Below are positions 12,491 through 58,499 of a DNA stretch of 64,000 bases, in pieces (the stretch's first letter is position 1; each line of letters opens with the position of its first letter). The stretch lies in the NCBI GenBank assembly GCA_964016885.1, contig OZ024753.1, positions 21,638,001 to 21,702,000 on the forward strand. The letters run 5' to 3'. The stretch comes from Eledone cirrhosa (lineage: Eukaryota). Made by a program: the position numbers and the translations under genes. The notes beneath the pieces were generated by a model. The model made no database searches and was not told where the DNA came from. It worked only from the letters and a program-made list of their open reading frames with translations.

Positions 12491-12535
12491 TACAAGTATA
12501 GTACTGGGGGATGTCTATAGGGGGTTGATTCGACT

Positions 12536-13111: not shown

Positions 13112-13224
13112 GAAGTATCTACCCCAGTATTTGACTGGTATCTTTTTAATTAACCCCGAAATAATGAACAGCAAAGTTGATCTTGGCGGGATTTGAACAG
13201 AGAAGCGGAACGAATGTAGTAAAG
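13112..13224 (-). mobile_element. B box, body and tail of the family A SINE that hosts the satellite
   Basis: Minus strand: (gatagaatg)ctttactac...ctgttcaaatcccgccaagatcaactttgctgttcattatttcggggttaattaaaaagataccagtcaaatactgggg, colinear with the other family A copies. Confidence 0.88.
13188..13198 (-). promoter_or_regulatory. Pol III B box of the host SINE
   Basis: gttcaaatccc matches GTTCRANNC. Confidence 0.75.
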
Positions 13225-16200
13225 CATTCTATCAGACGTTCTAACCACACTACCATTCTATCAGACGTTCTAACCACTCTACCATTCTATCTAACGTTCT
13301 AACGACTCTGCCATTCTATCAGACGTTCTAACCACTCTACCATTCTATCAGACGTTCTAACCACTCTACCATTCTATCAGACGTTCTAACCACACTACCA
13401 TTCTATCAGAAGTTCTAACCACTCTACCATTCTATCTGACGTTCTAACGACTCTGCCATTTTATCAGACGTTCTAACCACTCTACCATTCTATCAGACGT
13501 TCTAACCACTCTACCATTCTATCTGACGTTCTAACCACTCTACCATTCTATCTGACGTTCTAACGACTCTGCCATTCTATCAGAGGTTCTAACCACACTA
13601 CCATTCTATCAGACGTTCTAACCACTCTACCAGTATATCAGACGTTCTAACCCCTCTACCATTCTATCAGACGTTCTAACCACTCTACCATTCTATCAGA
13701 CGTTCTAACCACTCTACCATTCTATCAGACGTTCTAAGCACACTACCATTTTATCAGACGTTCTAACCACTATACCATTCTATCTGACGTTCTAACGACC
13801 CTACCATTCTATCTGACGTTCTAACGACTCTGCCATTTTATCAGACGTTCTAACAACTCTACCATTCTATCAGACGTTCTAACGACTCTACCATTCTATC
13901 TGACGTTCTAACCACTCTACCATTCTATCTGACGTTCTAACGACTCTGCCATTCTATCAGACATTCTAACCACTCTATCATTCTATCTAACGTTCTAACG
14001 ACTCTGCCATTCTATCAGACGTTCTAACCACACTACCATTATATCATACGTTCTAACCACTCTACTATTCTATCAGACGTTCTAACGACTCTACAATTCT
14101 ATCTGACGTTCTAACGACTCTGCCATTTTAACAGACATTCTAACCACTCTACCATTCTATCAGACGTTCTAACCACTCTACCATTCTATCTGACGTTCTA
14201 AACACTCTACTATTCTATCGGACGTTCTAACCACTCTACCATTCTATCATACGTTCTAACCACTCTTCCAGTCTATCAGACGTTCTAACCACTCTACCAT
14301 TCTATCAGACGTTCTAACCACCCTACCATTCTATCAGATGTTCTAACCACTCTATCATTCTATCTGACGTTCTAACGACTCTGCCATTCTATCAGACGTT
14401 CTAACCACTCTACCATTATATCATACGTTCTAACCACACTACCATTCTATCAGACGTTCTAACCACTCTATCATTCTATCGGACGTTCTAAGCACTCTAC
14501 CATTCTATCAGACGTTCTAACGACTCTACAATTCTATCTGACGTTCTAACGACTCTACCATTCTATCAGACGTTCTAACCGCTCTACCATTCTATCTGAC
14601 GGTCTAACCACTCTACCATTCTATCTGATGTTCTAACCACCCTACCATTCTATCTGACGTTCTAACCACTCTACTAGTCTATCAGACATTCGAACCACTC
14701 TACCATTCTATCAGACGTTCTAACCACTCTACCATTCTATCTGACGTTCTAACGACTCTGCCATTTTATCAGACGTTCTAACCACTCTACCATTCTATCA
14801 GACGTTCTAACCACTCTACCATTCTATCTGACGTTCTAACCACTCTACCATTCTATCTGACGTTCTAACGACTCTGCCATTCTATCAGAGGTTCTAACCA
14901 CACTACCATTCTATCAGACGTTCTAACCACTCTACCAGTATATCAGACGTTCTAACCCCTCTACCATTCTATCAGACGTTCTAACCACTCTACCATTCTA
15001 TCAGACGTTCTAACCACTCTACCATTCTATCAGACGTTCTAAGCACACTACCATTTTATCAGACGTTCTAACCACTATACCATTCTATCTGACGTTCTAA
15101 CGACCCTACCATTCTATCTGACGTTCTAACGACTCTGCCATTTTATCAGACGTTCTAACAACTCTACCATTCTATCAGACGTTCTAACGACTCTACCATT
15201 CTATCTGACGTTCTAACCACTCTACCATTCTATCTGACGTTCTAACGACTCTGCCATTCTATCAGACATTCTAACCACTCTATCATTCTATCTAACGTTC
15301 TAACGACTCTGCCATTCTATCAGACGTTCTAACCACACTACCATTATATCATACGTTCTAACCACTCTACTATTCTATCAGACGTTCTAACGACTCTACA
15401 ATTCTATCTGACGTTCTAACGACTCTGCCATTTTAACAGACATTCTAACCACTCTACCATTCTATCAGACGTTCTAACCACTCTACCATTCTATCTGACG
15501 TTCTAAACACTCTACTATTCTATCGGACGTTCTAACCACTCTACCATTCTATCATACGTTCTAACCACTCTTCCAGTCTATCAGACGTTCTAACCACTCT
15601 ACCATTCTATCAGACGTTCTAACCACCCTACCATTCTATCAGACATTCTAACCACTCTATCATTCTATCTAACGTTCTAACGACTCTGCCATTCTATCAG
15701 ACGTTCTAACCACACTACCATTATATCATACGTTCTAACCACTCTACTATTCTATCAGACGTTCTAACGACTCTACAATTCTATCTGACGTTCTAACGAC
15801 TCTACCATTCTATCAGACGTTCTAACCGCTCTACCATTCTATCTGACGGTCTAACCACTCTACCATTCTATCTGATGTTCTAACCACCCTACCATTCTAT
15901 CTGACGTTCTAACCACTCTACTAGTCTATCAGACATTCGAACCACTCTACCATTCTATCAGACGTTCTAACCACTCTACCATTCTATCAGACGTTCTAAC
16001 CAGTCTACCATTCTATCTGACGTTCAAACCACTCAACCATTCTATCTGACGTTCTAACCACACTACCATTCTATCAGACGTTCTAACCAATCTACCATTC
16101 TATCAGACGTACTAACCATTCTACCTGACGTTCTAAAATCACTACCATTCTATCAGACGTTCTAACTATTCTACCATTCTATCTGACGTTCTAACCACTA

Positions 16201-19200
16201 CCATTCTATCTGACGTTCTAAAGACAATACCATTCTATCAGACGTTCTAATCACTCTACCATTCTATCTGACATTCTAATGACTGCCATTCAATCGAACG
16301 TTCTAACCACACGACCATTCTATCTGATGTTCTAACCACACTACCATGCTATCTGACGTTCTAACCATTCTACCATTCTATCTGATGTTCCAACGACACT
16401 ACCATTCTATCAGACGTGCTAACCACTCTGCCATTCTCTCTGACATTCTAATGACTGCCATTCTATCCAACGTCCTAACCACACTACCATTCTATCAGAC
16501 GTTCTAACCACTCTACCATTCTATCAGAGGTTCTAACCACTCTACCATTCTATCATACGTTCTAACCCTTCTACCATTCTATCAGACGTTCTAACCACTC
16601 TACCATTCTATCAGACGTTCTAAGCACTCTACCATTCTATCAGACGTTCTAACGACTCTACCATTCTATCCGACGTTCTAACCACTCTAGCATTCTATCT
16701 GACGTTCTAACCACTCTACCATTCTATCTTACGTTCTAACAACTGCCATTCTATCTGACGTTCTAACGACACTACCATTCTATCAGACGTTCTAACCACT
16801 CTACCATTCTATCTGACATTCTAATGACTGCCATTCTATCGAACGTTCTAACCACTACCATTCTATCTGATGTTCTAACCACACTACCATTCTATCAGAC
16901 ATTCTAACCACTCTACCATTCTATCTGACGTTCTAACCATTCTACCATTCTATCTGATGTTCTAATGACACTAGCATTCTATCAGACGTTCTAATCACAC
17001 TACCATTTATCTCATGTTCTAACGACACTACCAATCTATCAAACGTCCTAACGACTATACCATTATATCTGACATTCTAATGTCTGCTATTCTATCCAAC
17101 GTCCTAACCACAGTACTATTCTATCAGACGTTTTAACCATTCTACCATTCTATCAGATGTTCTAACCACTCTACTAGTCTATCAGACGTTCGAACCACTC
17201 TACTATTCTATAAGACGTTCTAACCACACTACCATTCTATCTGACGTTCTAACCACTCTACCATTCTATCTGACGTTCTAACGACTCTGCCATTCTATCA
17301 AACGTTCTAACCACTCTACCATTCTATCAGACGTTCTAACCACTCTACCATTCTATCTGACGTTCTAACGACTCTGCCATTCTATCAGATGTTCTAACCA
17401 CTCTACCATTCTATCATACGTTCTAACCACACTACCATTCTATCATACGTTCTAACCACTCTACCATTCTATCAGACGTTCTAACCACTCTACCATACTA
17501 TCAGACGTTCTAACCACACTGCCATTCTATCTGAAGTTCTAACCACTCTACTATTCTACCTGAGAGTTCTAACCACTCGACCATTCTATCTGACGTTCTA
17601 ATCATTCAACCATTCTATCTGACGTTCTAACCACACCACCATTCTATCAGACGTTCTAACCATTCTACCATTCTATCTGACGTTCTAACGACACTACCAT
17701 TCTATCAGACGTTCTAACCACTCCACCATTCTTTCTGACATTCTAATGACTGCCATTCTATCGAACGTTCTAACCACTACCATTCTATCTGATGTTCTAA
17801 CCACTCTACCATTTTATCTGACGTTCCGACCATTCTACCATTCTATCTGATGTTCTAACGACACTACCATTCTATCAGACGTTCTAACCACACTACCATT
17901 CTATCTGATGTTCTAACCACACTACCAGTCTATCAGAAGATCTAACCACTCTACCATTATATCTGACGTTCTAACCATTCTACCATTCTATCTGATGTTC
18001 TAACGACACTACCATTCTATGTGATGTTCTAACGACACTACCATTCTATCAGACGTTCTAGCCACTCTACCATTGTATCTGACATTCTAATGACTGCCAC
18101 TCTATCCAACATCCTAACCACACTACCATTCTATCAGACGTTCTAACCACTCTACCATTCTATCAGACGTTCTAACCACTATACCATTTTATCTGACGTT
18201 CTAACGACTCTGCCATTCTATCAGATGTTCTAACCACTCTACCATTCTATCATACGTTCTAACCACACTACGATTCTATCATACGTTCTAACCACTCTAC
18301 CATTCTATCAGACGTTCTAACCACTCTACCATACTATCATACGTTCTAACCACACTGCCATTCTATCTGACGTTCTAACCACTCTACTATTCTACCTGAC
18401 GTTCTAACGACTCTGCCATTCTATCAGACGTTCTAACCACTCTATCATTCTATCAGACGTTCAAACAACTCTACCATTCTATCTGACGTTCTAACGACTC
18501 TGCCATTCTATCAGATGTTCTAACCACTCTACCATTCTATCATACGTTCTAAGCACACTACCATTCTATCAGACGTTCTAACCACTCTACCTTTCTATCA
18601 GACGTTCTAAGCACTCTACCATTCTATCAGACGTTCTAACCACTCTAGCATTCTAGCATTCTATCTGACGTTCTAACGACTCTACCATTCTATCTGACGT
18701 TCTAACGACTCTACCATTCTATCTAACGTTCTAACGACTCTGCCATTCTATCACACGTTCTAACCACTCTACCATTCTATCAGACGTTCTAACCACTCTA
18801 CCGTTCTATCTGACATTCTAATGACTGCCATTCAATCGAACGTTCTAACCACACGACCATTCTATCTGATGTTCTAACCACACTACCATTCTATCTGACG
18901 TTCTAACCATTCTACCATTCTATCTGATGTTCTAACGACACTACCATTCTATCAGATGTTCTAACCACTCTACCATTCTATCAGACGTTCTAAGCACTCT
19001 ACCATTCTATCAGACGTTCTAACGACTCTACCATTCTATCTGACGTTCTAACCACTCTAGCATTTTATCTGACGTTCTAACCACTCTACTATTCTATCTT
19101 ACGTTCTAACGACTGCCATTCTATCTGACGTTCTAACGACACTACCATTCTATCAGACGTTCTAACCACTCTACCATTCTATCAGACGTTCTAACCACTC

Positions 19201-22200
19201 TACCATTCTATCTGACGTTCTAACCACTCTACTATTCTATCAGACGTTCTAACCACTCTACCATTCTATCAGACGTTCTAACCACTCTTCCAGTCTATCA
19301 GACGTTCTAACCACTCTACCATTCTATCAGATGTTCTAACCACTCTACCATTATATCATACGTTCTAACCACACTACCATTCTATCTGACGTTCTAACCA
19401 CTCTACTATTCTATCAGACGTTCTAACCACTCTACCATTCTATCAGACGTTCTAACCACTCTTCCAGTCTATCAGACGTTCTAACCACTCTACCATTCTA
19501 TCAGACGTTCTAACCACTCTACCATTCTATCAGATGTTCTAACCACTCTATCATTCTATCTGACGTTCTAACGACTCTGCCATTCTATCAGACGTTCTAA
19601 CCACTCTACCATTATATCATACGTTCTAACCACACTACCATTCTATCAGACGTTCTAACCACTCTATCATTCTATCAGACGTTCTAAGCACTCTACCATT
19701 CTATCAGACGTTCTAACGACTCTACAATTCTATCTGACGTTCTAACGACTCTACCATTCTATCAGACGTTCTAACCACTCTACCATTCTATCAGACGTTA
19801 TAACCACTCTACCAGTCTATTAGACGTTCTAACCCCTCTACCATTCTATCAGACGTTCTAACCACTCTACCATTCTATCAGACGTTCTAACCACACTACC
19901 ATTCTATCAGACGTTCTAACCACTATACCATTCTATCTGACGTTCTAACGACCCTACCATTCTATCTGACGTTCTAACGACTTTGCCATTTTATCAGACG
20001 TTCTAACAACTCTACCATTCAATCAGACGTTCTAACGACTCTACCATTCTATCTGACGCTCTAACCACTCTACCATTCTATCTGACGTTCTAACGACTCT
20101 GCCATTCTATCAGACGTTCTAACCACTCTATCATTCTATCTGACGTTCTAACGACTCTGCCATTCTATCAGACGTTCTAACCACACTACCATTATATCAT
20201 ACGTTCTAACCACTCTACTATTCTATCAGACGTTCTAACGACTCTACAATTCTATCTGACGTTCTAACGACTCTGCCATTTTAACAGACGTTCTAACCAC
20301 TCTACCATTCTATCAGACGTTCTAACCACTCTACCATTCTATCTGACGTTCTAACCACTCTACTATTCTATCAGACGTTCTAACCACTCTACCATTCTAT
20401 CATACGTTCTAACCACTCTTCCAGTCTATCAGACGTTCTAACCACTCTACCATTCTATCAGACGTTCTAACCACTCTACCATTCTATCAGATGTTCTAAC
20501 CACTCTATCATTCTATCTGACGTTCTAACGACTCTGCCATTCTATCAGACGTTCTAACCACTCTACCATTATATCATACGTTCTAACCACACTACCATTC
20601 TATCAGACGTTCTAACCACTATACCGTTCTATCTGACGTTCTAACGACCCTACCATTCTATCTGACGTTCTAACGACTCTGCCATTTTATCAGACGTTCT
20701 AACAACTCTACCATTCTATCAGACATTCTAACGACTCTACCATTCTATCTGACGCTCTAACCACACTACCATTCTATCTGACGTTCTAACGACTCTGCCA
20801 TTCTATCAGACGTTCTAACCACACTACCATTATATCATACGTTCTAACCACTCTACTATTCTATCAGACGTTCTAACGACTCTACAATTCTATCTAACGT
20901 TCTAACGACTCTGCCATTTTAACAGACATTCTAACCACTCTACCATTCTATCAGACGTTCTAACCACTCTACCATTCTATCTGACGTTCTAACCACTCTA
21001 CTATTCTATCGGACGTTCTAACCACTCTACCATTCTATCATACGTTCTAACCACTCTTCCAGTCTATCAGACGTTCTAACCACTCTACCATTCTATCAGA
21101 CGTTCTAACCACCCTACCATTCTATCAGATGTTCTAACCACTCTATCATTCTATCTGACGTTCTAACGACTCTGCCATTCTATCAGACGTTCTAACCACT
21201 CTACCATTATATCATACGTTCTAACCACACTACCATTCTATCAGACGTTCTAACCACTCTATCATTCTATCGGACGTTCTAAGCACTCTACCATTCTATC
21301 AGACGTTCTAACGACTCTACCATTCTATCAGACGTTCTAACCGCTCTACCATTCTATCTGACGGTCTAACCACTCTACCATTCTATCTGATGTTCTAACC
21401 ACCCTACCATTCTATCTGACGTTCTAACCACTCTACTAGTCTATCAGACATTCGAACCACTCTACCATTCTATCAGACGTTCTAACCACTCTACCATTCT
21501 ATCAGACGTTCTAACCAGTCTACCATTCTATCTGACGTTCAAACCACTCAACCATTCTATCTGACGTTCTAACCACACTACCATTCTATCAGACGTTCTA
21601 ACCAATCTACCATTCTATCAGACGTACTAACCATTCTACCTGACGTTCTAAAATCACTACCATTCTATCAGACGTTCTAACTATTCTACCATTCTATCTG
21701 ACGTTCTAACCACTACCATTCTATCTGACGTTCTAACCACTACCATTCTATCTGACGTTCTAAAGACAATACCATTCTATCAGACGTTCTAATCACTCTA
21801 CCATTCCATCTGACATTCTAATGACTGCCATTCAATCGAACGTTCTAACCACACGACCATTCTATCTGATGTTCTAACCACACTACCATTCTATCTGACG
21901 TTCTAACCATTCTACCATTCTATCTGATGTTCTAACGACACTACCATTCTATCAGACGTGCTAACCACTCTGCCATTCTCTCTGACATTCTAATGACTGC
22001 CATTCTATCCAACGTCCTAACCACACTACCATTCTATCAGACGTTCTAACCACTCTACCATTCTATCAGAGGTTCTAACCACCCTACCATTCTATCATAC
22101 GTTCTAACCCTTCTACCATTCTATCAGACGTTCTAACCACTCTACCATTCTATCAGACGTTCTAAGCACTCTACCATTCTATCAGACGTTCTAACGACTC

Positions 22201-25200
22201 TACCATTCTATCCGACGTTCTAACCACTCTAGCATTCTATCTGACGTTCTAACCACTCTACCATTCTATCTTACGTTCTAACAACTGCCATTCTATCTGA
22301 CGTTCTAACGACACTACCATTCTATCAGACGTTCTAACCACTCTACCATTCTATCTGACATTCTAATGACTGCCATTCTATCGAACGTTCTAACCACTAC
22401 CATTCTATCTGATGTTCTAACCACACTACCATTCTATCAGACATTCTAACCACTCTACCATTCTATCTGACGTTCTAAACATTCTACCATTCTATCTGAT
22501 GTTCTAATGACACTAGCATTCTATCAGACGTTCTAATCACACTACCATTTATCTCATGTTCTAACGACACTACCATTCTATCAAACGTCCTAACGACTAT
22601 ACCATTATATCTGACATTCTAATGTCTGCTATTCTATCCAACGTCCTAACCACAGTACTATTCTATCAGACGTTTTAACCATTCTACCATTCTATCAGAT
22701 GTTCTAACCACTCTACTAGTCTATCAGACGTTCGAACCACTCTACTATTCTATAAGACGTTCTAACCACACTACCATTCTATCTGACGTTCTAACCACTC
22801 TACCATTCTATCTGACGTTCTAACGACTCTGCCATTCTATCAAACGTTCTAACCACTCTACCATTCTATCAGACGTTCTAACCACTCTACCATTCTATCT
22901 GACGTTCTAACGACTCTGCCATTCTATCAGATGTTCTAACCACTCTACCATTCTATCATACGTTCTAACCACACTACCATTCTATCATACGTTCTAACCA
23001 CTCTACCATTCTATCAGACGTTCTAACCACTCTACCATACTATCAGACGTTCTAACCACACTGCCATTCTATCTGAAGTTCTAACCACTCTACTATTCTA
23101 CCTGACGTTCTAACCACTCGACCATTCTATCTGACGTTCTAATCATTCAACCATTCTATCTGACGTTCTAACCACACCACCATTCTATCAGACGTTCTAA
23201 CCATTCTACCATTCTATCTGACGTTCTAACGACACTACCATTCTATCAGACGTTCTAACCACTCCACCATTCTTTCTGACATTCTAATGACTGCCATTCT
23301 ATCGAACGTTCTAACCACTACCATTCTATCTGATGTTCTAACCACTCTACCATTTTATCTGACGTTCCGACCATTCTACCATTCTATCTGATGTTCTAAC
23401 GACACTACCATTCTATCAGACGTTCTAACCACACTACCATTCTATCTGATGTTCTAACCACACTACCAGTCTATCAGAAGATCTAACCACTCTACCATTA
23501 TATCTGACGTTCTAACCATTCTACCATTCTATCTGATGTTCTAACGACACTACCATTCTATCTGATGTTCTAACGACACTACCATTCTATCAGACGTTCT
23601 AGCCACTCTACCATTGTATCTGACATTCTAATGACTGCCACTCTATCCAACATCCTAACCACACTACCATTCTATCAGACGTTCTAACCACTCTACCATT
23701 CTATCAGACGTTCTAACCACTATACCATTTTATCTGACGTTCTAACGACTCTGCCATTCTATCAGATGTTCTAACCACTCTACCATTCTATCATACGTTC
23801 TAACCACACTACGATTCTATCATACGTTCTAACCACTCTACCATTCTATCAGACGTTCTAACCACTCTACCATACTATCATACGTTCTAACCACACTGCC
23901 ATTCTATCTGACGTTCTAACCACTCTACTATTCTACCTGACGTTCTAACGACTCTGCCATTCTATCAGACGTTCTAACCACTCTATCATTCTATCAGACG
24001 TTCAAACAACTCTACCATTCTATCTGACGTTCTAACGACTCTGCCATTCTATCAGATGTTCTAACCACTCTACCATTCTATCATACGTTCTAAGCACACT
24101 ACCATTCTATCAGACGTTCTAACCACTCTACCTTTCTATCAGACGTTCTAACCACTCTAGCATTCTATCTGACGTTCTAACGACTCTACCATTCTATCTG
24201 ACGTTCTAACGACTCTACCATTCTATCTAACGTTCTAACGACTCTGCCATTCTATCACACGTTCTAACCACTCTACCATTCTATCAGACGTTCTAACCAC
24301 TCTACCGTTCTATCTGACATTCTAATGACTGCCATTCAATCGAACGTTCTAACCACACGACCATTCTATCTGATGTTCTAACCACACTACCATTCTATCT
24401 GACGTTCTAACCATTCTACCATTCTATCTGATGTTCTAACGACACTACCATTCTATCAGATGTTCTAACCACTCTACCATTCTATCAGACGTTCTAAGCA
24501 CTCTACCATTCTATCAGACGTTCTAACGACTCTACCATTCTATCTTACGTTCTAACGACTGCCATTCTATCTGACGTTCTAACGACACTACCATTCTATC
24601 ATACGTTCTAACCACTCTACCATTCTATCTGACATTCTAATGACTGCCATTCTATCGAACGTTCTAACCACTACCATTCTATCTGATGTTCTAACCACAC
24701 TACCATTCTATCAGACATTCTAACCACTCTACCATTCTATCTGACGTTCTAACCATTCTACCATTCTATCTGATGTTCTAATGACACTAGCATTCTATCA
24801 GACGTTCTAATCACACTACCATTTATCTCATGTTCTAACGACACTACCATTCTATCAAACGTTCTAACGACTATACCATTATATCAGACGTTCTAAGCAC
24901 TCTACCATTCTATCAGACGTTCTAACGACTCTACCATTCTATCTGACGTTCTAACCACTCTAGCATTCTATCTGACGTTCTAACCACTCTACTATTCTAT
25001 CTTACGTTCTATCGACTGCCATTCTATCTGACGTTCTAACGACACTACCATTCTATCAGACGTTCTAACCACTCTACCATTCTATATGACATGCTAATGA
25101 CTGCCATTCTATCGAAAGTTCTAACCACTACCATTCTATCTGATGCTCTAACAACAGTACCATTCTATCAGATATTCTAACCACTCTACCATTCTATCTG

Positions 25201-28200
25201 ACGTTCTAACCATTCTACCATTCTATCTGATTTTCTAACGACACTACCATTCTATCAGACGTTCTACTGACTACACAATTATATCTGACATTCTAATGTC
25301 TGCTATTCTATCCAACGTCCTAACCACAATACTATTCTATCCAACGTCCTAACCACAATACTATTCTATCAGACGTTTTAAACATTCTACCATTCTATGA
25401 GACGTTCTAACCACTCTACTAGTGTATCAGACGTTCGAACCACTCTACTATTCTATAAGACGTTCTAACCACACTACCATTCTATCTGACGTTCTAACCA
25501 CTCTACTATTCTACCTGACGTTCTAACGACTCTGCCATTCTATCAGACGTTCTAACCACTCTACCATTCTATCAGACGTTCAAACCACTCTACCATTCTA
25601 TCTGACGTTCTAACGACTCTGCCATTCTATCAGACGTTCTAACCACACTACCAATATATCATACGTTCTAACCACTCTACTATTCTATCAGACGTTCTAA
25701 CAACTCTACAATTCTATCTGACGTTCTAACGACTCTGCCATTTTAACAGACGTTCTAACCACTCTACCATTCTATCAGACGTTCTAACCACTCTACCATT
25801 CTATCTGACGTTCTAACGACTCTACCATTCTATCTGACGTTCTAACCACTCTAGCATTCTATCTGTCGTTCTAACGACTCTACCATTCTATCTAACGTTC
25901 TAACGACTCTGCCATTCTATCAGACGTTCTAAGCACTCTACCATTCTATCAGACGTTCTAACCACTCTACCATTCTATCAGAAGTTCTAACCACACTACC
26001 ATTCTATCTGACGTTCTAACCACTCGACCATTCTATCTGACATTCTAACGACACTACCATTCTATCAGACGTTCTTACCACTCCACCATTCTTTCTGACA
26101 TTCTAATGACTGCCATTCTATCGAACGTTCTAACCACTACCATTCTATCTGATGTTCTAACCACTCTACCATTCGATCTGACGTTCCAACCATTCTACCA
26201 TTCTATTTGATGTTCTAACGACTCTACCGTTCTATCAGACGTTCTAACCACACTACCATTCTATCTGATGTTCTAACCACACTACCATTCTATCAGAAGA
26301 TCTAACCACTCTACCATTCTATCTGACGTTCTAACCATTCTACCATTCTATCTGATGTTCTAACGACACTACCATTCTATCTGATGTTCTAACGACTCTA
26401 GCATTCTATCAGACGTTCTAGCCACTCTACCATTGTATCTGACATTCTAATGACTGCCACTCTATCCAACATCCTAACCACACTACCATTCTATCAGACG
26501 TTCTAACCACTCTTCTATTCTATCAGACGTACTAACGACTCTAACATTCTATCAAATGTTCTAACCACTCTACCATTCTATCAGACATTCTAACCACACT
26601 ACTATTCTATCTGACGTTCTAACCACTCTACCATTTTATTTGACGTTCTAACGACTCTGCCATTCTATCAGACGTTCTAACCACTCTACCATTCTATCAG
26701 ACGTTCTAACCACTTTACCATTCTATCTGACGTTCTTACGATTCTGCCATTCTATCATACGTTCTAACTACTCTACCATTCTATCTTACGTTCTAACGAC
26801 TGCCATTCTATCTGACGTTCTAACGACACTACCATTCTATCAGACGTTCTAACCACTCTACCATTCTATATGACATTCTAATGACTGCCATTCTATCGAA
26901 AGTTCTAACCACTACCATTCTATCTGATGCTCTAACCACACTACCATTCTATCAGACATTCTAACCACCCTACCATTCTATCTGACGTTCTAACCATTCT
27001 ATCTCATGTTCTAACGACACTACCATTCTATCAGACGTTCTAACGACTATACCATTATATCTGACATTCTAATGTCTGATATTCTATCCAACGTCCTAAT
27101 CACAATACTATTCTATCAGACGTTTTAAACATTCTAACATTCTATCAGACGTTCTAACCACTCTACTAGTCTATCAGACGTTCGAACCACTCTACTATTC
27201 TATAAGACGTTCTAACCACACTACCATTCTATCTGACGTTCTAATCACTCTACTATTCTGCCTGACGTTCTAACGACTCTGCCATTCTATCAGATGTTCT
27301 AACCACTCTACCATTCTATCATACGTTCTAACCACACTACCATTCTATCAGACGTTCTAACCACTCTACCTTTCTATCAGACGTTCTAAGCACTCTACCA
27401 TTCTATCAGACGTTCTAACGACTCTACCATTCTATCTGACGTTCTAACCACTCTAGCATTCTATCTGACGTTCTAACGACTCTACCATTCTATCTGACGT
27501 TCTAACCACTCGACCATTCTATCTGACGTTCTAATCATTCAACCATTCTATCTGACGTTCTAACCACACCACCATTCTATCAGACGTTCTAACCACTCTA
27601 CCATTCTATCTGACGTTCTAACCATTCTACCATTCTATCTGATGTTCTAACGACACTACCATTCTATCAGACGTGCTAACCACTCTCCCATTCTCTCTGA
27701 CATTCTAATGACTGCCATTCTATCCAACGTCTTAACCACACTACCATTCTATCAGACGTTCTAACCACTCTACCATTCTATCAGATGTTCTAACCACTCT
27801 ACCATTCTATCATACGTTCTAACCACTCTACCATTCTATCAGCCGTTCTAAGCACTCTACCATTCTATCAGACGTTCTAACGACTATACCATTATATCTG
27901 ACATTCTAATGTCTGCTATTCTATCCAACGTCCTAACCACACTACTATTCTATCAGACGTTTTAACCATGCTACCATTCTATCAGCCGTTCTAACCACTC
28001 TACTATTCTATCAGACGTTCCAACCTCTCTACTATTCTATAAGACGTTCTAACCACACTAACATTCTATCTGACGTTCTAACCACTCTACCATTCTATCT
28101 GACGTTCTAACGACTCTGCCATTCTATCAGATGTTCTAACCACTCTACCATTCTATCATACGTTCTAACCACACTACCATTCTATCAGACGTTCTTACCA

Positions 28201-46200: not shown

Positions 46201-49200
46201 TTCTATCTGACGTTCTAACCACTACCATTCTATCTCATGTTCTAACAACACTACCATTCTATCAGACGTTCTAACCACTCTACCATTCTATCTGACATTG
46301 TAATGACTGCCATTCTATCCGACATCCTAACCACTCTACCATTCTATCAGACGTTCTAACCACTCTACCATTCTATCAGAGGTACTAACGACTCTACCAT
46401 TCTATCAGATGTGTCTAACCACTCTACCATTCTATTAGACGTTCTAACCACTCTACTAGTCTATCAGACGTTCGAACCACTCTACCATTCTATCAGACGT
46501 TCTAACCTCACTACCATTCTATCTGACGTTCTAACCACTCTACCATTCTATTAGACGTTCTATCCACACTACCCTTCTATCAGACGTTCTAACCGCACTA
46601 CCATTCTATCTGACGTTCTAACCATTCTACCATTCTATCTGATGTTCTAACGACACTACCATTCTATCAGACGTGCTAACCACTCTACCATTCTATCTGA
46701 CATTCTAATGACTGCCACTCTATCGAACGTTCTAACCACTACCATTCTATCTGATGTTCTAACCACTCTACCATTCTATCAGACATTCTAACCACTCTAC
46801 CATTCTATCTGACGTTCTAACCATTTTACCATTCTATCTGATATTCTAACGACACTAGCATTCTATCAGACGTTCTAATCACACTACCATTCTATCTCAT
46901 GTTCTAACCACACTACCATTCTATCTAACGTTCTAACCACTCTACTATTGTATCTGACGTTCTAACGACTCTGCCATTCTATCAGACGTTCTAACCACTC
47001 TACCATTCTATCAGACGTTCTAACCACTCTACCATTCTATCTGACGTTCTAACGACTCTGCCATTCTATCAGATGTTCTAACCACTCTACCATTCTATCA
47101 TACGTTCTAACCACACTACCATTCTATCATACGTTCTAACCACTCCACCATACTTTCTGACTTTCTGACATTCTGATGTTCTAACCACTCTACCATTCTA
47201 TCAGACATTCTAACCACTCTACCATTCTATCTGACGTTCTAACCATTTTACCATTCTATCTGATGTTCTAACGACACTAGCATTCTATCAGACGTACTAA
47301 TCACACTACCATTCTATCTCATGTTCTAACCACACTACCATTCTATCTAACGTTCTAACCACTCTACTATTGTATTTTACCATTCTATCTGATGTTCTAA
47401 CGACACTAGCATTCTATCAGACGTTCTAATCACACTACCATTCTATCTCATGTTCTAACCACACTACCATTCTATCTAACGTTCTAACCACTCTACTATT
47501 GTATCTGACGTTCTAACGACTCTGCCATTCTATCAGACGTTCTAACCACTCTACCATTCTATCAGACGTTCTAACCACTCTACCATTCTATCTGACGTTC
47601 TAACGACTCTGCCATTCTATCAGATGTTCTAACCACTCTACCATTCTATCATACGTTCTAACCACACTACCATTCTATCGAACGTTCTAACCACTACCAT
47701 TCTATCTGATGTTCTAACCACTCTACCATTCTATCTGACGTTCCGACCATTCTACCATTCTATCTGATGTTCTAACGACACTACCAATCTATCAGACGTT
47801 CTAACCACACTACCATTCTATCTGATGTTCTAACCACACTACCATTCTATCAGAAGATCTAACCACTCTACCATTCTATTAGACGTTCTAACCACACTAC
47901 CATTCTATCAGACGTTCTAACCACTATACCATTCTATCTGATGTTCTAACGACACTACCATTCTATCTGATGTTCTAACGACACTACCATTCTATCAGAC
48001 GTTCTAGCCACTCTACCATCGTATCTGATATTCTAATGACTGCCACTCTATCCAACATCCTAACCACTCTACCATTCTATCAGACATTCTAACCACTCTA
48101 CTATTCTATCAGACGTACTAACGACTCTAACATTCTATCAGATGTTCTAACCATTCTACCATTCTATCAGACATTCTAACCACTCTAATAGTCTATCAGA
48201 CGTTCGAACCACTCTACCATTCTATCAGACATTCTAACCACACTACTATTGTATCTGACGTTCTAACCACTCTACCATTCTATTTGACGTTCTAACGATT
48301 CTGCCATTCTATCAGACGTTCTAACCACACTACCATTCTATCAGACGTTCTAACCACTCTACCATTCTATCTGACCTACTAACCACTCTACCATTCTATC
48401 AGACGTTCTAACCACTCTACCAATCTATCAGACGTTCTAACCACTCTACCATTCTATCGGACGTTCTAACCACTCTACCATTCTATCAGACGTTCTTACG
48501 ATTCTGCCATTCTATCAGACGTTCTAAGCACTCTACCATTCTATCAGACGTTCTAACCATTCTATCTGACGTTCTAACCACTCTACCATTCTATCAAACG
48601 TTCTAACCACGCTACCATTCTATCTGACGTTCTAACCAGTCTACTATTCTATCAGACGTTCTAAGCACTCTATCATTCTATCAGACGTTCTAACCACTCA
48701 ACCATTCTATCCGACGTTCTAACCACTCTAGCATTCCATCAGACGTTCTAACCACTCTACCATTCTATCAAACGTTCTAACTACGCTACCATTCTATCTG
48801 ACGTTCTAACCACTCTACCATTCTATCTGACGTTCTAACCACTCTACCATACTATCTGACGTTCTAACCACTCTACCATCCTATCTGACGTTCTAACCAC
48901 ACTACCATTCTATCTGCCGTTCTAACCACACTAACATTCTATCTGACGTTCTAACCACTCAACCATTCTATCAGACGTTCTAACCATTCTACCATTCTAC
49001 CTGACGCTCTAACCACACTACCATTCTATCAGACGTTCTAACCTCTCTACCATTCTATCTGACGTTCTAACCACTACCATTCTATCTGACGTTCTAACGA
49101 CACTACCATTCTATCAGACGTTCTAACCACTCTACCATTCTATCTGACATTCTAATGACTGCCATTCTATCGAACATTCTAACCACTACCATTCTATCAG

Positions 49201-52200
49201 ACGTTCTAACCACACTACCATTCTATCTCATGTTCTAACGACACTACCATTCTATCATACGTTCTAACCACACTACCATTCTATCAGACGTTCTAACCAC
49301 TCTACCATTCTATCAGACGTTCTAAGCACTACCATTCTATCTGACGTTCTAACGACACTACCATTCTATCAGACGTTCTAACGACTATACCATCATATCT
49401 GACATTCTAATGTCTGCTATTCTATCCAACGTCCTAACCACACTACTATTCTATCAGACGTTTTAACCATGCTACCATTCTATCAGACGTTTTAACCACT
49501 CTAGTAGTCTATCAGACGTTCGAACCACTCTCCTATACCATAAGACGTTCTAACCACACTACCATTCTATCTGACGTTCTAACCACACTACCATTCTATC
49601 TGACGTTCTAACGACTCTGCCATTCTATCAGATGTTCTAACCACTCTACCATTCTATCATACGTTCTTAACACACTACCATTCTATCATACGTTCTAACC
49701 ACTCTACCATTCTATCAGACGTTCTTACCACTCTACCATACTATCAGACGAGCTAAGCACTCTACCATTCTATCAGACGTTCTAACGACTCTAGCATTCT
49801 ATCTGACGTTCCAACCACTCTACCATTCTATCTGACGTTCTAACCACTCTACCATTCTATTTTACGTTCTAACGACTGCCATTCTATCGAACGTTCTAAC
49901 CACTACCATTCTATCAGACGTTCTAACCACTATACCATTCTATCTGATGTTCTAACGACACTACCATTCTATCTGAAGTTCTAACGACACTACCATTCTA
50001 TCAGACGTTCTAGCCACTCTACCATTGTATCTGAGATTCTAATGACTGCCACTCTATCTAACATCCTAACCACACTACCATTCTATCAGACGTTCTAACC
50101 ACACTACCATTCTATCAGACGTACTAACGACTCTAACATTCTATCAGATGTTCTAACCATTCTACCATTCTATCAGACATTTTAACCACTCTAATAGTCT
50201 ATCAGACGTTCGAACCACTCTACCATTCTATCAGACATTCTAACCACACTACTATTGTATCTGACGTTCTAACCACTCTACCATTCTATTTGACGTTCTA
50301 ACGATTCTGCCATTCTATCAGACGTTCTAACCACTCTACCATTCTATCAGACGTTCTAACCACTCTACCATTCTATCTGACCTTCTAACCACTCTACCAT
50401 TCTATCTGACGTTCTAACGACTCTGCCATTCTATCAGACATTCTAACCACTCTACCATTCTATCAGACGTTCTAACCACTCTACCATTCTATCTGACCTT
50501 CTAACCACTCTACCATTCTATCAGACGTTCTAACCACTCTACCAATCTATCAGACGTTCTAACCACTCTACCATTCTATCGGACGTTCTAACCACTCTAC
50601 CATTCTATCAGACGTTCTAACCACTTTACCATTCTATCTGACGTTCTTACGATTCTGCCATTCTATCAGACGTTCTAACCACTCTACCATTCTATCATAC
50701 GTTCTAACTACTCTACCATTCTATCAGACGTTCTAAGCACTCTACCATTCTATCAGACGTTCTAACCATTCTATCTGACGTTCAAACCACTCTACCATTC
50801 TATCAAACGTTCTAACCACGCTACCATTCTATCTGACGTACTAACGACTCTAACATTCTATCAGATGTTCTAACCATTCTACCATTCTATCAGACATTCG
50901 AACCACTCTAATAGTCTATCAGACGTTCGAACCACTCTACCATTCTATCAGACATTCTAACCACTCTACCATTCTATCTGACGTTCTAACCATTTTACCA
51001 TTCTATCTGATGTTCTAACGACACTAGCATTCTATCAGACGTTCTAATCACACTACCATTCTATCTCATGTTCTAACCACACTACCATTCTATCTAACGT
51101 TCTAACCACTCTACTATTGTATCTGACGTTCTAACGACTCTGCCATTCTATCAGACGTTCTAACCACTCTACCATTCTATAAGACGTTCTAACCACTCTA
51201 CCATTCTATCAAACGTTCTAACTACGCTACCATTCGATCTGACGTTCTAACCACTCTACCATTCTATCTGACGTTCTAACGACTCTGCCATTCTATCAGA
51301 TGTTCTAACCACTCTACCATTCTATCATACGTTCTAACCACACTACCATTCTATCATACGTTCTAACCACTCCACCATACTTTCTGACTTTCTGACATTC
51401 TGATGTTCTAACCATTCTATCTGACGTTAAATCCACTCTACCATTCTATCAAACGTTCTAACCACGCTACCATTCTATCTGACGTTCTAACCACTCTACT
51501 ATTCTATCAGACATTCTAAGCATTCTACCATTCTATCAGACGTTCTAACCACTCTACCGTTCTATCCGACGTTCTAACCACTCTAGCATTCCATCAGACG
51601 TTCTAACCACTCTACCATTCTATCAAACGTTCTAACTACGCTACCATTCTATCTGACGTTCTAGCCACTCTACCATTCTATCTGACGTTCTAACCACTCT
51701 ACCATACTATCTGACGTTCTAACCACTCTACCATCCTATCTGACGTTCTAACCACACTACCATTCTATCTGCCGTTCTAACCACACTACCATTCTATCTG
51801 ACGTTCTAACCACTCAACCATTCTATCAGACGTTCTAACCATTCTACCATTCTACCTGACGTTCTAACCATTCTACCATTCTACCTGACGTTCTAACCAC
51901 ACTACCATTCTACCTGACGTTCTAACCTCTCTACCATTCTATCTGACGTTCTAACCACTACCATTCTATCTGACGTTCTAACGACACTACCATTCTATCA
52001 GACGTTCTAACCACTCTACCATTCTATCTGACATTCTAATGACTGCCATTCTATCGAACGTTCTAACCACTACCATTCTATCAGACGTTCTAACCACACT
52101 ACCATTCTATCTCATGTTCTAACGACACTACCATTCTATCAGACGTTCTAACCACTCTACCATTCTATCTGACATTCTAATGACTGCCATTCTATCCGAC

Positions 52201-55200
52201 GTCCTAACCACTCTACCATTCTATCAGACGTTCTAACCACTCTACCATTCTATCAGAGGTACTAACGACTCTACCATTCTATCAGATGTGTCTAACCATT
52301 CTACCATTTTATCAGACGTTCTAACCACTCTACTAGTCTATCAGACGTTCGAACCACTCTACCATTCTATCAGACATTCTAACCACACTACCATTCTATC
52401 TGACGTTCTAACCACTCTACCATTCTATCAGACGTTCTAACCACTCTACCATTCTATCTGACGTTCTAACCATTCTACCATTCTATCTGATGTTCTAACG
52501 ACACTACCATTCTATCAGACGTGCTTACCACTCTGCCATTCTCTCTGACATTCTAATGACTGCCATTCTATCCAACGTCTTAACCACATTACCATTCTAT
52601 CAGACGTTCTAACCACTCTACCATTCTATCAGACGTTCTAACCACTCTACCATTCTATCATACGTTCCGACCATTCTACCATTCTATCTGATGTTCTAAC
52701 GACACTACCATTGTATCAGACGTTCTAGCCACTCTACCATTGTATCTGACATTCTAATGACTGCCACTCTATCCAACATCCTAACCACACTACCATTCTA
52801 TCAGACGTTGTAACCACTCTACTATTCCATAAGACGTACTAACGACTCTAACATTCTATCAGATGTTCTAACCATTCTACCATTCTATCAGACATTCTAA
52901 CCACTCTAATAGTCTATCAGACGTTCGAACCACACTACCATTCTATCAGACATTCTAACCACACTACTATTGTATCTGACGTTCTAACCACTCTACCATT
53001 CTATTTGACGTTCTAACGATTCTGCCATTCTATCAGACGTTCTAACCACTCTACCATTCTATCAGACGTTCTAACCACTCTACCATTCTATCTGACCTTC
53101 TAACCACTCTACCATTCTATCTGACGTTCTAACGACTCTGCCATTCTATCAGACATTCTAACCACTCTACCATTCTATCAGACGTTCTAACCACTCTACC
53201 AATCTATCAGACGTACTAACCACTCTACCATTCTATCAGATGTTCTAACCACTCTACCATTCTATCATACGTTCTAACCACTCTACCATTCTATCAGACG
53301 TTCTAACCACTCTACCATTCTATCAGATGTTCTAACCACTCTACCATTCTATCATACGTTCTAACCACTCTACCATTCTATCAGACGTTCTAACCACTCT
53401 ACCATTCTATCAGACGTTCTAAACACTCTACCATTCTATCAGACGTTCTAACGACTATACCATTTTATCTGACATTCTAATGTCTGCTATTGTATCCAAC
53501 GTCCTAACCACACTACTATTCTATCAGACGTTTTAACCATGCTACCATTCTATCAGACGTTCTAACCACTCTACTAGTCTATCAGACGTTCGAACCACTC
53601 TACTATTCTATAAGATGTTCTAACCACACTACCATTCTATCAGACGTTCTAACCACTCTAGCATTCCATCAGCCGTTCTAACCACACTACCATTCTATCA
53701 AACGTTCTAACCACGCTACCATTCTATCTGACGTTCTAAGCACTCTACCATTCTATCTGACGTTCTAACCACTCTACCATAATATCTGACGTTCTAACCA
53801 CTCTACCATCCTATCTGACGTTCTAACCACACTACCATTCTATCTGACGTTCTAACCACACTACCATTCTATCTGACGTTCTAACCACTCTACCATTCTA
53901 TCAGACGTCCTAACCATTCTACCATTCTACCTGACGTTCTAACCACACTACCATTCTATCAGACGTTCTAACCTCTCTACCATTCTATCTGACGTTCTAA
54001 CCACTACCATTCTATCTGACGTTCTAACGACACTACCATTCTATCAGACGTTCTAACCACTCTACCATTCTATCTGACATTCTAATGACTGCCATTCTAT
54101 CGAACGTTCTATCCACTACCATTCTATCAGACGTTCTAACCACACTACCATTCTATCTCATGTTCTAACCACTACGATTCTATCTGACGTTCTAACGACA
54201 CTACCATTCTATCAGACGTTCTAACCACTCTACCATTCTATCTGACATTCTAATGACTGCCATTCTATCCGACGTCCTAACCACTCTACCATTCTATCAG
54301 ACGTTCTAACCACTCTACCATTCTATCAGAGGTACTAACGTCTCTACCATCTTATCAGATGTGTCTAACCATTCTACCATTCTATCAGACGTTCTAACCA
54401 CTCTACTAGTCTATCAGACGTTCGAATCACTCTATCATTCTATAAGACGTTCTAACCACACTACCATTCTATCTGACGTTCTAACCACTCTACCATTCTA
54501 TCAGACGTTCTAACCACACTACCATTCTATCAGACGTTCTAACCACTCTACCATTCTATCTGACGTTCTAACCATTCTACCATTCTATCTGATGTTCTAA
54601 CGACACTACCATTCTATCAGACGCGCTAACCACTCTGCCATTCTATCAGATGTTCTAACCACTCTACCATTCTATCATACGTTCTAACCACTCTACCATT
54701 CTATCAGACGTTCTAACCACTCTACCATTCTATCAGATGTTCTAACCACTCTACCATTCTATCATACGTTCTAACCACTCTACCATTCTATCAGACGTTC
54801 TAACCACTCTACCATTCTATCAGACGTTCTACGCACACTACCATTCTATCAGACGTTCTAACGACTATACCATTATATCTGACATTCTAATGTCTGCTAT
54901 TGTATCCAACGTCCTAACCACACTACTATTCTATCAGACGTTTTAACCATGCTACCATTCTATCAGACGTTCTAACCACTATACTAGTCTATCAGACGTT
55001 CGAACCACTCTACTATTCTATAAGATGTTCTAACCACACTACCATTCTATCAGACGTTCTAACCACTCTACCATTCTATCTGACGTTCTAACGACTCTGC
55101 CTTTATATCAGAGTCGTTCTAACGACTCTGCCTTTCTATCAGATGTTCTAACCACTCTACCATTCTATCATACGTTCTAACCACACTACCATTCTATCAT

Positions 55201-58200
55201 ACGTTCTAACCACTCTACCATTCTATCAGACGTTCTTACCACTCTACCATACTATCAGACGTTCTAAGCACTCTACCATTCTATCAGACGTTCTAACGAC
55301 TCTACCATTCTATCTGACGTTCTAACCACTCTAGCATTCTATCCGACGTTCTAACCACTCTACCATTCTATCTGACGTTCTAACCACTCTACCATTCTAT
55401 CTTACGTTCTAACGACTGCCATTCTAGCTGACGATCTAACGACACTACCATTCTATCAGACGTTCTAACCACTCTACCATTCTATCTGACATTCTAATGA
55501 CTGCCATTCTATCGAACGTTCTAACCACTACCATTCTCTCTGATGTTCTAACCACACTACCATTCTATCAGACATTCTAACCACTCTACCATTCTATCTG
55601 ACGTTCAAACCACTCTACCATTCTATCTGATGTTCTAACGACACTAGCATTCTATCAGACGTTCTAATCACACTACCATTCTATCTCATGTTCTAACCAC
55701 ACTACCATTCTATCTAACGTTCTAACCACTCTACTATTCTATCTGACGTTCTAACGACTCTGCCATTCTATCAGACGTTCTAACCACTCTACCATTCTAT
55801 CATACGTTCTAACCACACTACCATTCTATCATACGTTCTAACCTCTCCACCATTCTTTCTGACATTCTAATGACTGCCATTCTATCAAACGTTCTAACCA
55901 CTACCATTCTATCTGATGTTCTAACCACTCTACCATTCTATCTGACGTTCCGACCATTCTACCATTCTATCTGATGTTCTAACGACACTACCATTCTATC
56001 AGACGTTCTAACCACACTACCATTCTATCTGATGTTCTAACCACTATACCATTTTATCTGATGTTCTAACGACACTACCATTCTATCTGATGTTCTAACG
56101 ACACTACCATTGTATCAGACGTTCTAGCCACTCTACCATTGTATCCGACATTCTAATGACTGCCACTCTATCCAACATCCTAACCACACTACCATTCTAT
56201 CAGACGTTGTAACCACTCTACTATTCTATAAGACGTACTAACGACTCTAACATTCTATCAGATGTTCTAACCATTCTACCATTCTATCAGACATTCTAAC
56301 CACTCTAATAGTCTATCAGACGTTCGAACCACTCTACCATTCTATCAGACATTCTTACCACACTACTATTGTATCTGACGTTCTAACCACTCTACCATTC
56401 TATTTGACGTTCTAACGATTCTGCCATTCTATCAGACGTTCTAACCACTCTACCATTCTATCAGACGTTCTAACCACTCTACCATTCTATCTGACCTTCT
56501 AACCACTCTACCATTCTATCTGACGTTCTAACGACTCTGCCATTCTATCTGACGTTCTAACGACTCTGCCATTCTATCAGACATTCTAACCACTCTACCA
56601 TTCTATCAGACGTTCTAACCACTCTACCAATCTATCAGACGTACTAACCACTCTACCATTCTAACGGACGTTCTAACCAATTCTACCATTCTATCAGACG
56701 TTCTAACCACTCTACCATTCTATCTGACGTTCTACCGAATCTGCCATTCTATCAGACATTCTAACCACTCTACCATTCTATCATACGTTCTAACTACTCT
56801 ACCATTCTATCAGACGTTCTAAGGACTCTACCATTCTATCAGACGTTCTAACCACTCTACCATTCTATCTGACGTTCTAACCACTCTACCATTCTATCAA
56901 ACGTTCTAACCACGCTACAATTCTATCTGACGTTCTAACCACTCTACTATTCTATCAGATGTTCTAAGCACTCTACCATTCTATCAGACGTTCTAACCAC
57001 TCTAGCATTCCATCAGCCGTTCTAACCACACTACCATTCTATTAAACGTTCTAACCACGCTACCATTCTATCTGACGTTCTAAGCACTCTACCATTCTAT
57101 TTGACGTTCTAACCACTCTACCATAATATCTGACGTTCTAACCACTCTACCATCCTATCTGACGTTCTAACCACACTACCATTCTATCTGACGTTCTAAC
57201 CACACTACCATTCTATCTGACGTTCTAACCACTCTACCATTCTATCAGACGTCCTAACCATTCTACCATTCTACCTGACGTTCTAACCACACTACCATTC
57301 TATCAGACGTTCTAACCTCTCTACCATTCTATCTGACGTTCTAACCACTACCATTCTATCTGACGTTCTAACGACACTACCATTCTATCAGACGTTCTAA
57401 CCACTCTACCATTCTATCTGACATTCTAATGACTGCCATTCTATCGAACGTTCTAACCACTACCATTCTATCAGACGTTCTAACCACACTACCATTCTAT
57501 CTCATGTTCTAACCACTACCATTCTATCTGACGTTCTAACGACACTACCATTCTATCAGACGTTCTAACCACTCTACCATTCTATGTGACATTCTAATGA
57601 CTGCCATTCTATCCGACGTCCTAACCACTCTACCATTCTATCAGACGTTCTAACCACTCTACCATTCTATCAGAGGTACTAACGACTCTACCATTCTATC
57701 AGATGTGTCTAACCATTCTACCATTCTATCAGACGTTCTAACCACTCTACTAGTCTATCAGTCGTTCGAACCACACTACCATTCTATCTGACGTTCTAAC
57801 CGCTCTACCATTCTATCAGACGTTCTAACCACACTACCATTCTATCTGACGTTCTAACCACTCTACCATTCTATCTGACGTTCTAACCATTCTACCATTC
57901 TATCTGACGTTCTAACCACACTACCATTCTATCAGACGTTCTAACCATTCTACCATTCTACCTGACGTTCTAACCACACTACCATTCTATGAGACGTTCT
58001 AACCACTCTACCATTCTATCAGACGTTCTAACCACTACCATTCTATCTGACGTTCTAACGACACTACCATTCTATCAGACGTTCTAACCACACTACCATT
58101 CTATCTGATGATCTAACGACACTACCATTCTATCTGACGTTCTAACCACTCTACCATTCTATAAGACGTTCTAACGACTCTACCATTCTATTAGACGTTC

Positions 58201-58490
58201 GAACCACTCTACCATTTTAATGACTGCCATTCTATCCAACGTTCTAACCACTCTACCATTCTATCTGACATTTTAACCACTCTTCCATTCTATCTGACGT
58301 CCTAACCACTCTACCATTCTATCTGCTGTTCTAACCACTCTCCCATTCTATTATACGTTCTAACCACTCTGCCATTCTATCTGACGTTCTAACCACTCTA
58401 CCATTCTATCAGTTGTTCTAACCACTCTACCATTCTATCAGACGTTCTAACCACCCTACCATTCTATCAGACGTTCTAACCATTCTGCCA
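13225..58490. repeat. ~45.3-kb satellite array, 29-bp monomer cattctatc(a/t)gacgttctaaccactctac, with 27-, 21- and 30-bp variants and higher-order duplications
   Basis: First units start at 13225 and 13254. Single orientation, with no foreign insertion seen on reading through. Length/29 is about 1,560 units. Confidence 0.99.
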
Positions 58491-58499
58491 AATCCACCG
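58480..58499 (-). mobile_element. 5' head and A box of the family A SINE hosting the satellite
   Basis: Minus strand cggtggatttggcagaatgg aligns with cggtggattggcagtatcgg of the intact copy at 10734. Confidence 0.8.

What the first reader, a model, noticed from the sequence alone, without database searches (positions are those of the whole stretch)
13112..58499. A 45-kb satellite grown inside one SINE: the monomer is the Pol III A-box segment
Seen: on the minus strand the array is entered from cggtggatttggcagaatggttagaacgtctgatagaatg (58499 downward). It exits into ctttactac...ctgttcaaatcccgccaagatcaactttgc...ataccagtcaaatactgggg (13224-13112). Collapsing the array to one unit rebuilds a SINE colinear with the intact copy at 10731 (ggtggattggcagtatcggtagagggtcggacgccatgcttt...gagttcaaatcccgcc). 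The monomer tggtagagtggttagaacgtctgatagaa begins with TGGTAGAGTGG, which fits the A-box consensus TRGYNNANNNG. Established: TE-derived satellites are known. Inference: this is the birth site of the array with both parental junctions preserved, a short SINE expanded more than 200-fold in place.
Basis: partly seen in the sequence, partly recalled or inferred. Interest (0 to 1): 0.9.

Follow-up and report, generated by a model that had tools for sequence, protein, structure and literature searches.

The report
SINE promoter piece grown into satellites
A 45-kb block of a 29-base repeat sits exactly where that 29-base promoter piece lies in an old short jumping element (a SINE); dozens of other copies of the element carry the same block at lengths from two to about two thousand units, likely grown in place after insertion, which gives a ready-made series for studying how satellite DNA is born.

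Summary
Observation confirmed. Window 13227-58490 is 1,568 units of a 29-mer between a SINE head remnant and a SINE body. Two corrections.

(1) The parent is not the 10731 copy (sister family A). It is a longer, older family B; a one-unit copy lies at 4014-4295.

(2) This is not the only birth site. Of 322 family-B heads with an exact first unit, 48 carry arrays. 69 of 85 arrays keep the head, and 10 of 22 long ones keep target-site duplications. Four more span 42-60 kb. Family A amplifies the same segment.

Best reading: duplication in place, growth by unequal exchange, some exchange between loci. Unexplained: independent arrays converge on the same three base changes.

This is a new variant of the SINE-derived satellites of squamates (PMC10702118). 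The scan noted a similar case before in another genome. The array was not checked with long reads, and no target-site duplication survives at this locus.

The parts
58491..58499 (-). SINE head remnant (9 bp) upstream of the first unit
   Evidence: 6/10 to family-B head, 8/10 to family-A head. Junction spanned by an 817-bp contig without differences.
58462..58490 (-). First unit; keeps the parental C at unit position 4, where 1,274 of 1,394 units have T
   Evidence: Edge retention is family-wide: 16 of 18 first units, 8.0 expected from inner units.
13227..58490 (-). Tandem array of 1,568 units of the 29-bp A-box segment, with nested block duplications of 1.3, 1.8, 3.7 and 5.5 kb
   Evidence: Longest internal exact repeat 1,082 bp.
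13055..13226 (-). Family-B SINE body: rest of the tRNA-like head, central part and start of the CT-rich tract; 3' third missing
   Evidence: Consensus 15-224 aligns to 13255-13055 at 77.6%, E 1e-44. Best genomic relatives about 80%.
13189..13198 (-). B-box core (GTTCAAATCC), single, downstream of the last unit
   Evidence: The B-box consensus is recalled.
4014..4295 (+). One-unit family-B SINE copy: the right comparator inside the window
   Evidence: Consensus 11-340 aligns at 247/330, E 1e-68.
10731..10915 (+).
   Evidence: Best genomic copies 94-98% identical; 117/154 to family-B consensus.

Best explanation
The array is a SINE-internal satellite: the 29-bp A-box segment of one family-B SINE copy, likely duplicated in place long after insertion and then likely enlarged by repeated unequal exchange to 1,568 units, as at dozens of other copies. 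The first duplication likely used the short repeats at the two ends of the segment (GAAT followed by TG at both ends). Later growth likely went by block duplications of 1-6 kb. Occasional exchange between arrays likely spreads a common unit type. Shown: the anatomy, the independent loci, the target-site duplications and the length series. Inferred: the molecular steps. No function is indicated; it reads as a by-product of SINE sequence and recombination.
For: 48 of 63 head-pattern hits are arrays with distinct flanks (14 are single units, 1 lies inside the window's array); 47 of the 48 run out into SINE body, read by eye. Head at least 7/10 in 69 of 85 arrays with both ends held, and in 27 of 34 picked by their tail only; chance 0.28%. 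Target-site duplications in 10 of 22 arrays of 16+ units, 9 of 23 of 2-15 units and 17 of 41 single copies; shuffled-flank controls 0.95, 0.65, 2.7. In 38 short arrays units differ by 3.9% while the bodies are 12% from consensus, and 4 of 38 have a private change fixed in the units. Loci sharing a flank differ in length: 49 vs 13, 34 vs 21, 409 vs 90 units. No body column separates 50 long-array copies from 82 single copies (best p 0.0015 in 691 tests). The window array holds imperfect block duplications, longest exact run 36 units. Arrays lie nearer contig ends than single copies (median 10.8 vs 24.4 Mb, p 3.5e-5).
Against: At this locus the SINE 3' end and target-site duplication are gone and the 9-bp head fits family A better than B, so one insertion is not proven here. 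The window array is mid-chromosome (0.46 of the length), and the end bias is not significant on small chromosomes (p 0.12). Purely local growth does not explain why T4, G10 and A22 are the majority state in 41, 37 and 39 of 53 arrays while no other change exceeds 4. Family A duplicates the same 29-bp register with only TG shared at the ends, so microhomology is not the whole cause. Two-unit copies are rare (3 of 38 short arrays). The body comparison has little power against a master whose body equals the consensus, and its single-copy set included a few family-A copies.
Confidence: 0.78

Rival explanations
1. Arrays are mostly imported: a one-unit SINE copy repairs a break by copying many units from an existing array elsewhere, so old SINEs act as landing pads and keep their head, body and target-site duplication.
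For: The same three derived bases recur in most arrays but are rare in single copies (T4 in 9 and G10 in 5 of the first 100 listed, counted by eye; A or T at 22 in 65 of 260). First units keep parental C4. In 24 short arrays these three sites differ at 0.165 per site against 0.026 elsewhere. Double-change unit types shared between loci: 112 against 84.7 +/- 7.1, 0 of 100 shuffles as high. L163/L246 and L097/L098 have different 5' flanks but share private changes at the start of the body.
Against: Large arrays share at most 125 bp of exact sequence, mostly common units. Many short arrays are purely parental or carry private fixed changes. T4 and G10, 6 bp apart, often occur separately. The shuffle null ignores mutation hot spots and misparsed indels.
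Confidence: 0.3
2. A master SINE already carried a few tandem units differing at positions 4, 10 and 22; its daughters inherited them and only grew afterwards.
For: Would explain the three shared variable sites at once. In family A, 13 of 16 arrays share a 45-bp unit with a similar junction. Vondrak et al. (PMC7004042, abstract) describe satellites grown from arrays carried inside LTR elements.
Against: No diagnostic body change. The three two-unit and nine three-unit copies show no common pattern. Family-A 45-bp arrays sit on at least three different body variants, read by eye.
Confidence: 0.15
3. This locus is a chimera: a family-A head recombined with a family-B array, or two nearby SINEs were fused, so head and body are not from one insertion.
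For: The head matches family A 8/10 (chance 0.14%) and family B 6/10. No target-site duplication survives.
Against: CGGTGAAT is the second commonest head ending among 125 family-B copies (13) and is one substitution and one insertion from the window's head. The first unit is family-B type.
Confidence: 0.12
4. The 45-kb length or the joining of the flanks is an assembly artefact.
For: No long read was available; no contig spans the array or bridges the tail junction.
Against: No N in the window, 406 unit types, longest exact internal repeat 1,082 bp, uniform locus-specific variant mix end to end (T7 in 12-34% of every 100-unit bin). Head and body are in register and orientation.
Confidence: 0.05

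Closest known systems
SINE-derived satellites (sSat1-3) of squamate reptiles, Vassetzky, Kosushkin and Ryskov 2023, PMC10702118 (parts 1-4 of 5 of the text read)
   Same: Tandem arrays of a SINE segment with SINE sequence at the array ends, many loci, a few to over 1,200 units, subtelomeric bias, long arrays converging on one variant.
   Different: Their units are about 70-290 nt; here 29 nt limited to the A-box segment. They call both SINE termini kept an uncommon variant; here it is the rule (69 of 85), with target-site duplications. Arrays here reach about 2,000 units. The host is likely an invertebrate (recalled, untested).
Alu-derived minisatellites (Ahmed and Liang 2012, PMC3389668, passages; Jurka and Gentles 2006 seen only as cited) and the B1-derived mouse VNTR family (Bois et al. 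1998, seen only as cited in PMC6947457)
   Same: Short SINE segment duplicated between short direct repeats and expanded in place at many loci.
   Different: Alu-derived arrays average 2.3-2.4 units and come from many parts of Alu. Here one fixed segment is used, the median of 40 head-selected arrays is near 30 units, and several reach 42-60 kb.
Retrotransposon-derived satellites of Lathyrus sativus (Vondrak et al., PMC7004042, abstract only)
   Same: Short arrays inside a dispersed element occasionally expand to satellite length.
   Different: There the LTR element carries the array; here the usual element has one unit (274 of 322 exact heads).
PcH-Sat of the limpet Patella (PMC11121367, passages)
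   Same: Mollusc satellite related to a SINE.
   Different: 179-bp monomer lacking boxes A and B, pericentromeric, with no SINE head and body bracketing shown in the passages seen.

Membership tests
SINE-derived satellite (sSat) | Repeat unit is a part of a dispersed SINE, shorter than the SINE | tested here: met
   29-mer = consensus positions 13-41 of family B; 260 exact single-unit copies.
SINE-derived satellite (sSat) | At least four middle units in tandem | tested here: met
   1,568 units.
SINE-derived satellite (sSat) | Terminal unit extends into SINE sequence on one or both sides | tested here: met
   Body 13226-13055 at E 1e-44; short head remnant; 69 of 85 other loci keep the head.
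SINE-derived satellite (sSat) | Many loci with subtelomeric bias | tested here: met
   48 arrays vs 64 single copies, p 3.5e-5; holds on large chromosomes, not significant on small ones; this locus is mid-chromosome.
SINE-derived satellite (sSat) | Longer arrays are more homogeneous within | tested here: not met
   Within-array identity 0.96, 0.96, 0.95, 0.94 from short to long bins in 78 loci. This is a reported tendency of sSats, not part of their definition.
tRNA-derived SINE (parent element) | Dispersed copies with target-site duplications and simple-repeat tail | tested here: met
   17 of 41 single copies with duplications, control 2.7; CATA-type ends.
tRNA-derived SINE (parent element) | A and B boxes at tRNA-like spacing | tested here: met
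Consensus patterns are recalled.
tRNA-derived SINE (parent element) | Head traceable to a named tRNA or named SINE family | tested here: inconclusive
   ARAGORN found none in the window; Rfam no tRNA match on one single copy; SINEBase supplement unreadable. Likeness to octopus OR-type SINEs is recalled only.
tRNA-derived SINE (parent element) | Transcription by RNA polymerase III | not testable with these tools
   No RNA holder listed.
Centromeric satellite | One major block per chromosome bound by centromeric histone | not testable with these tools
   Three giant arrays on one arm of C1 and two on C13 do not look like one block per chromosome; binding untested.

The most novel reading that the evidence does not exclude
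The A-box segment of these SINEs is a built-in satellite generator. Two sister families only 76% alike duplicate the same 29-bp register although one shares just two bases at the breakpoints, which would point to a cause tied to the Pol III promoter or its tRNA-like fold. Once arrays exist, they would spread by being copied into old one-unit SINE copies, seeding a satellite family across the genome without any transposition.
Probability: 0.25. Interest if true: 0.75.

Novelty: new variant of a known kind. Interest (0 to 1): 0.5.

Why it matters
How a short duplication becomes a long satellite is usually inferred from end products. Here one genome holds dozens of replicate loci with a known one-unit ancestor, both ends intact, often target-site duplications, and lengths from 2 to about 2,000 units. 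That makes growth rate, position effects and exchange between loci directly testable. The convergence of independent arrays on three base changes is a concrete puzzle that this series can settle. The loci are also candidates for highly variable markers.

Tried and rejected
Family A as parent: rejected.

Long-array copies as a body-defined subfamily: not found; no tree was built.

Local templating of the three changes from 8 bases upstream: lag 8 is the only one of 28 lags that gives all three, and 9 window units lack 8 bases, but lag-8 changes as a set are not enriched (permutation p 0.29) and a general context test was weak. It remains a lead only.

Hairpin loss: the parent tetramer folds at -8.8 kcal/mol, the common unit at 0. 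C10G ranks 4 of 87 for destabilising, but C4T ranks 22 and G22A 43, and C18T (rank 5) does not spread; longer arrays fold slightly less (rho 0.30, p 0.008, 78 loci). This is partial at best.

Plain CpG decay: does not fit C10G or C4T, and the other CpG changes rarely reach majority.

Copies launched from inside an array (5' end in unit sequence): candidates L064, L204 and L217 showed no target-site duplication that could confirm it.

Microhomology control with family A: failed as a control, since A also forms arrays.

ARAGORN and Rfam gave nothing. No RNA holder listed. Summed contig depth was not used as copy number. One RAD-seq run did not cover the unique head flank. The contingency table had wrong counts and was redone (41 of 110 vs 7 of 212, p 2e-15).
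Full report
Observation. The window is G000:C13:21,638,001-21,702,000 of a 3.0-Gb assembly. TRF finds one 29-bp array at 13225-58490. Parsed on the minus strand it has 1,568 units of 406 types; 1,394 are 29 bp and 129 are 27 bp. Contigs of runs X1 and X2, probably the source sample, cover 58457-59273 without a difference. No listed contig bridges the tail junction or spans the array. The array shows nested, imperfect block duplications of 1.3, 1.8, 3.7 and 5.5 kb, the longest exact run being 36 units. This is what real growth leaves, and it argues against an assembly loop.

The parent. The 10731 copy belongs to a young family A (94-98% among best hits; 37,804 exact head matches, array units included). 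The array's exit instead finds an older, longer family B at about 80%. A consensus of 44 single copies aligns to head flank + one unit + exit over positions 11-224 at 165/214, and to a one-unit copy at window 4014-4295. The 29-mer is the segment right after the 10-bp head and fits the A-box pattern in 855 of 1,568 units; one B-box core follows at 13189-13198 (consensus patterns recalled). The 3' third of the SINE is missing, so there is no target-site duplication here. The 9-bp head remnant fits family A (8/10) better than B (6/10). The host is likely an octopod, from recalled SINE motifs; I did not test this, and could not name the SINE family.

Not one birth site but many. An exact pattern of head + unit gives 260 matches followed by the body and 63 followed by a second unit start. 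Of the 63, 48 are arrays, 14 are single units with one base change and 1 lies inside the window array; 47 of the 48 run out into SINE body, read by eye. So 48 of 322 such heads (15%) carry arrays, probably an upper estimate since arrays keep units fresh. A tail-side pattern gave 109 matches, 100 listed; I fetched 40 new places, and 27 of 34 arrays with both ends held have a head of at least 7/10. Over all sources it is 69 of 85, chance 0.28%. Target-site duplications flank 10 of 22 arrays of 16+ units, 9 of 23 shorter ones and 17 of 41 single copies, against 0.95, 0.65 and 2.7 with shuffled flanks.

Other giant arrays, measured by their ends with interiors only partly read: C1:2.703-2.757 Mb (54 kb, head not seen), C1:11.146-11.206 Mb (60 kb), C1:21.406-21.465 Mb (60 kb, a family-A body where the head should be) and C13:22.124-22.165 Mb (42 kb). 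All four end in family-B body. C18:3.9 Mb and C2:18.7 Mb exceed 21 and 23 kb with one end not reached. The window holds 164 of 3,072 exact matches to a common 35-mer. Arrays lie nearer contig ends than single copies (48 vs 64 loci, 10.8 vs 24.4 Mb, p 3.5e-5). The effect is on large chromosomes only (p 5e-5; small ones p 0.12), the single-copy set is the subset with A or T at position 22, and this locus is mid-chromosome.

Growth in place. Bodies of single and long-array copies are equally old (86.5% and 88.0% to consensus) and no column separates them. In 38 arrays of 2-15 units, units differ by 3.9% against 12% body divergence, and 4 carry a private change in the units. Whole arrays of 27-bp and 34-bp variants occur. 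Loci sharing a flank differ in length. Both ends of the segment carry GAAT followed by TG, the short-repeat setting that Haber and Louis proposed for minisatellite birth (as summarised in PMC6947457). The steps themselves are inferred.

The open puzzle. Against the parent unit, T4, G10 and A22 are the majority in 41, 37 and 39 of 53 arrays; no other change exceeds 4. G10 rises with length (rho 0.33, p 0.003, 78 pattern-selected loci), while T4 and A22 do not significantly. First units keep C4 (16 of 18, 8.0 expected), but last units show only weak retention (G22 in 9 of 30, 5.6 expected). Heads whose first unit has A or T at 22 are expanded in 41 of 110 cases, against 7 of 212 with G. For exchange between loci: shared double-change unit types exceed a shuffle null (112 vs 84.7 +/- 7.1; 47 vs 33.8 +/- 4.8), and two pairs of neighbouring loci with different flanks share private body changes. 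Against it: no shared exact tract over 125 bp between large arrays. Local templating and hairpin loss were tested and are weak. I think some exchange between loci is likely, on top of local birth.

The sister family does it too. A family-A junction pattern has 309 matches. Of 19 regions examined, 16 gave TRF rows: 13 with a 45-bp unit covering the whole head (up to 144 units) and 3 with a 29-bp unit at the same breakpoints as family B; those with the end held run into family-A body. So the head segment is amplified in both families, though A shares only TG at the 29-bp breakpoints.

What is known. The closest kind is the SINE-derived satellites of squamates (PMC10702118, parts 1-4 of 5 read): same architecture, subtelomeric bias and convergence of long arrays, but units of 70-290 nt and both termini kept only uncommonly. 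Alu- and B1-derived minisatellites are the short-unit analogues (PMC3389668 and PMC6947457, passages). Seven searches listed no paper on an A-box-only array or on such arrays in cephalopods. Passages of an Octopus vulgaris repeat annotation had no word starting 'satellite' (PMC13282606). PMC4758252 and PMC3531059 (passages) only cite the octopus SINEs. The library misses most subscription papers, and the SINEBase supplement, which may name the family, could not be read. Two unchecked notes of this scan describe a like case in another genome.

Verdict. Real, and a clean case, but a new variant of a known kind. Its value lies in the replicate series and the unexplained convergence. Interest 0.5.

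Noticed in passing
window 59442-61421 (+): Three frames of a decayed element, likely Penelope-like (recalled). Pfam gives only a weak GIY-YIG match, E 0.035, below the cut-off.
   Followed up: partly
window 4965-5764: 60-bp tandem repeat, about 13 units at 92-96%, with a 39-bp variant.
   Followed up: no
window 12270-12492 and 2067-2260: 24-bp (9.3 units) and 47-bp (4.1 units) tandem repeats; contigs of X1-X3 show a joint going back 72 bases in the 24-bp one.
   Followed up: no
window 6368-6520: Palindromic element with long inverted arms, MITE-like by eye; a similar one interrupts the SINE body in L058.
   Followed up: no
window 1-2000 and 6850-8700: Decayed LINE-like reverse-transcriptase sequence, judged by eye and recalled.
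   Followed up: no
L265 4450-10000 (G000:C4:75.2 Mb): Family-B array whose later units are longer and take in the start of the body: a second breakpoint in the same SINE.
   Followed up: no
L163 and L246 (C17:14.20 and 13.69 Mb); L097 and L098 (C2:35.29 and 35.42 Mb): Array-bearing copies with different 5' flanks that share private body changes; likely conversion between neighbouring loci.
   Followed up: partly
L288-L289 5631-12130; L281 1249-2237: Family-A arrays: 144 units of 45 bp, and 34 units of 29 bp at the family-B breakpoints.
   Followed up: partly
window 58461-59273: Run X3 holds an 814-bp contig with three substitutions and one insertion, likely the other haplotype; it stops in the first unit, so its array length is unknown.
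   Followed up: no
window 11590-11745 and 62140-62235: Two more family-A-type SINE fragments, 5' truncated.
   Followed up: no
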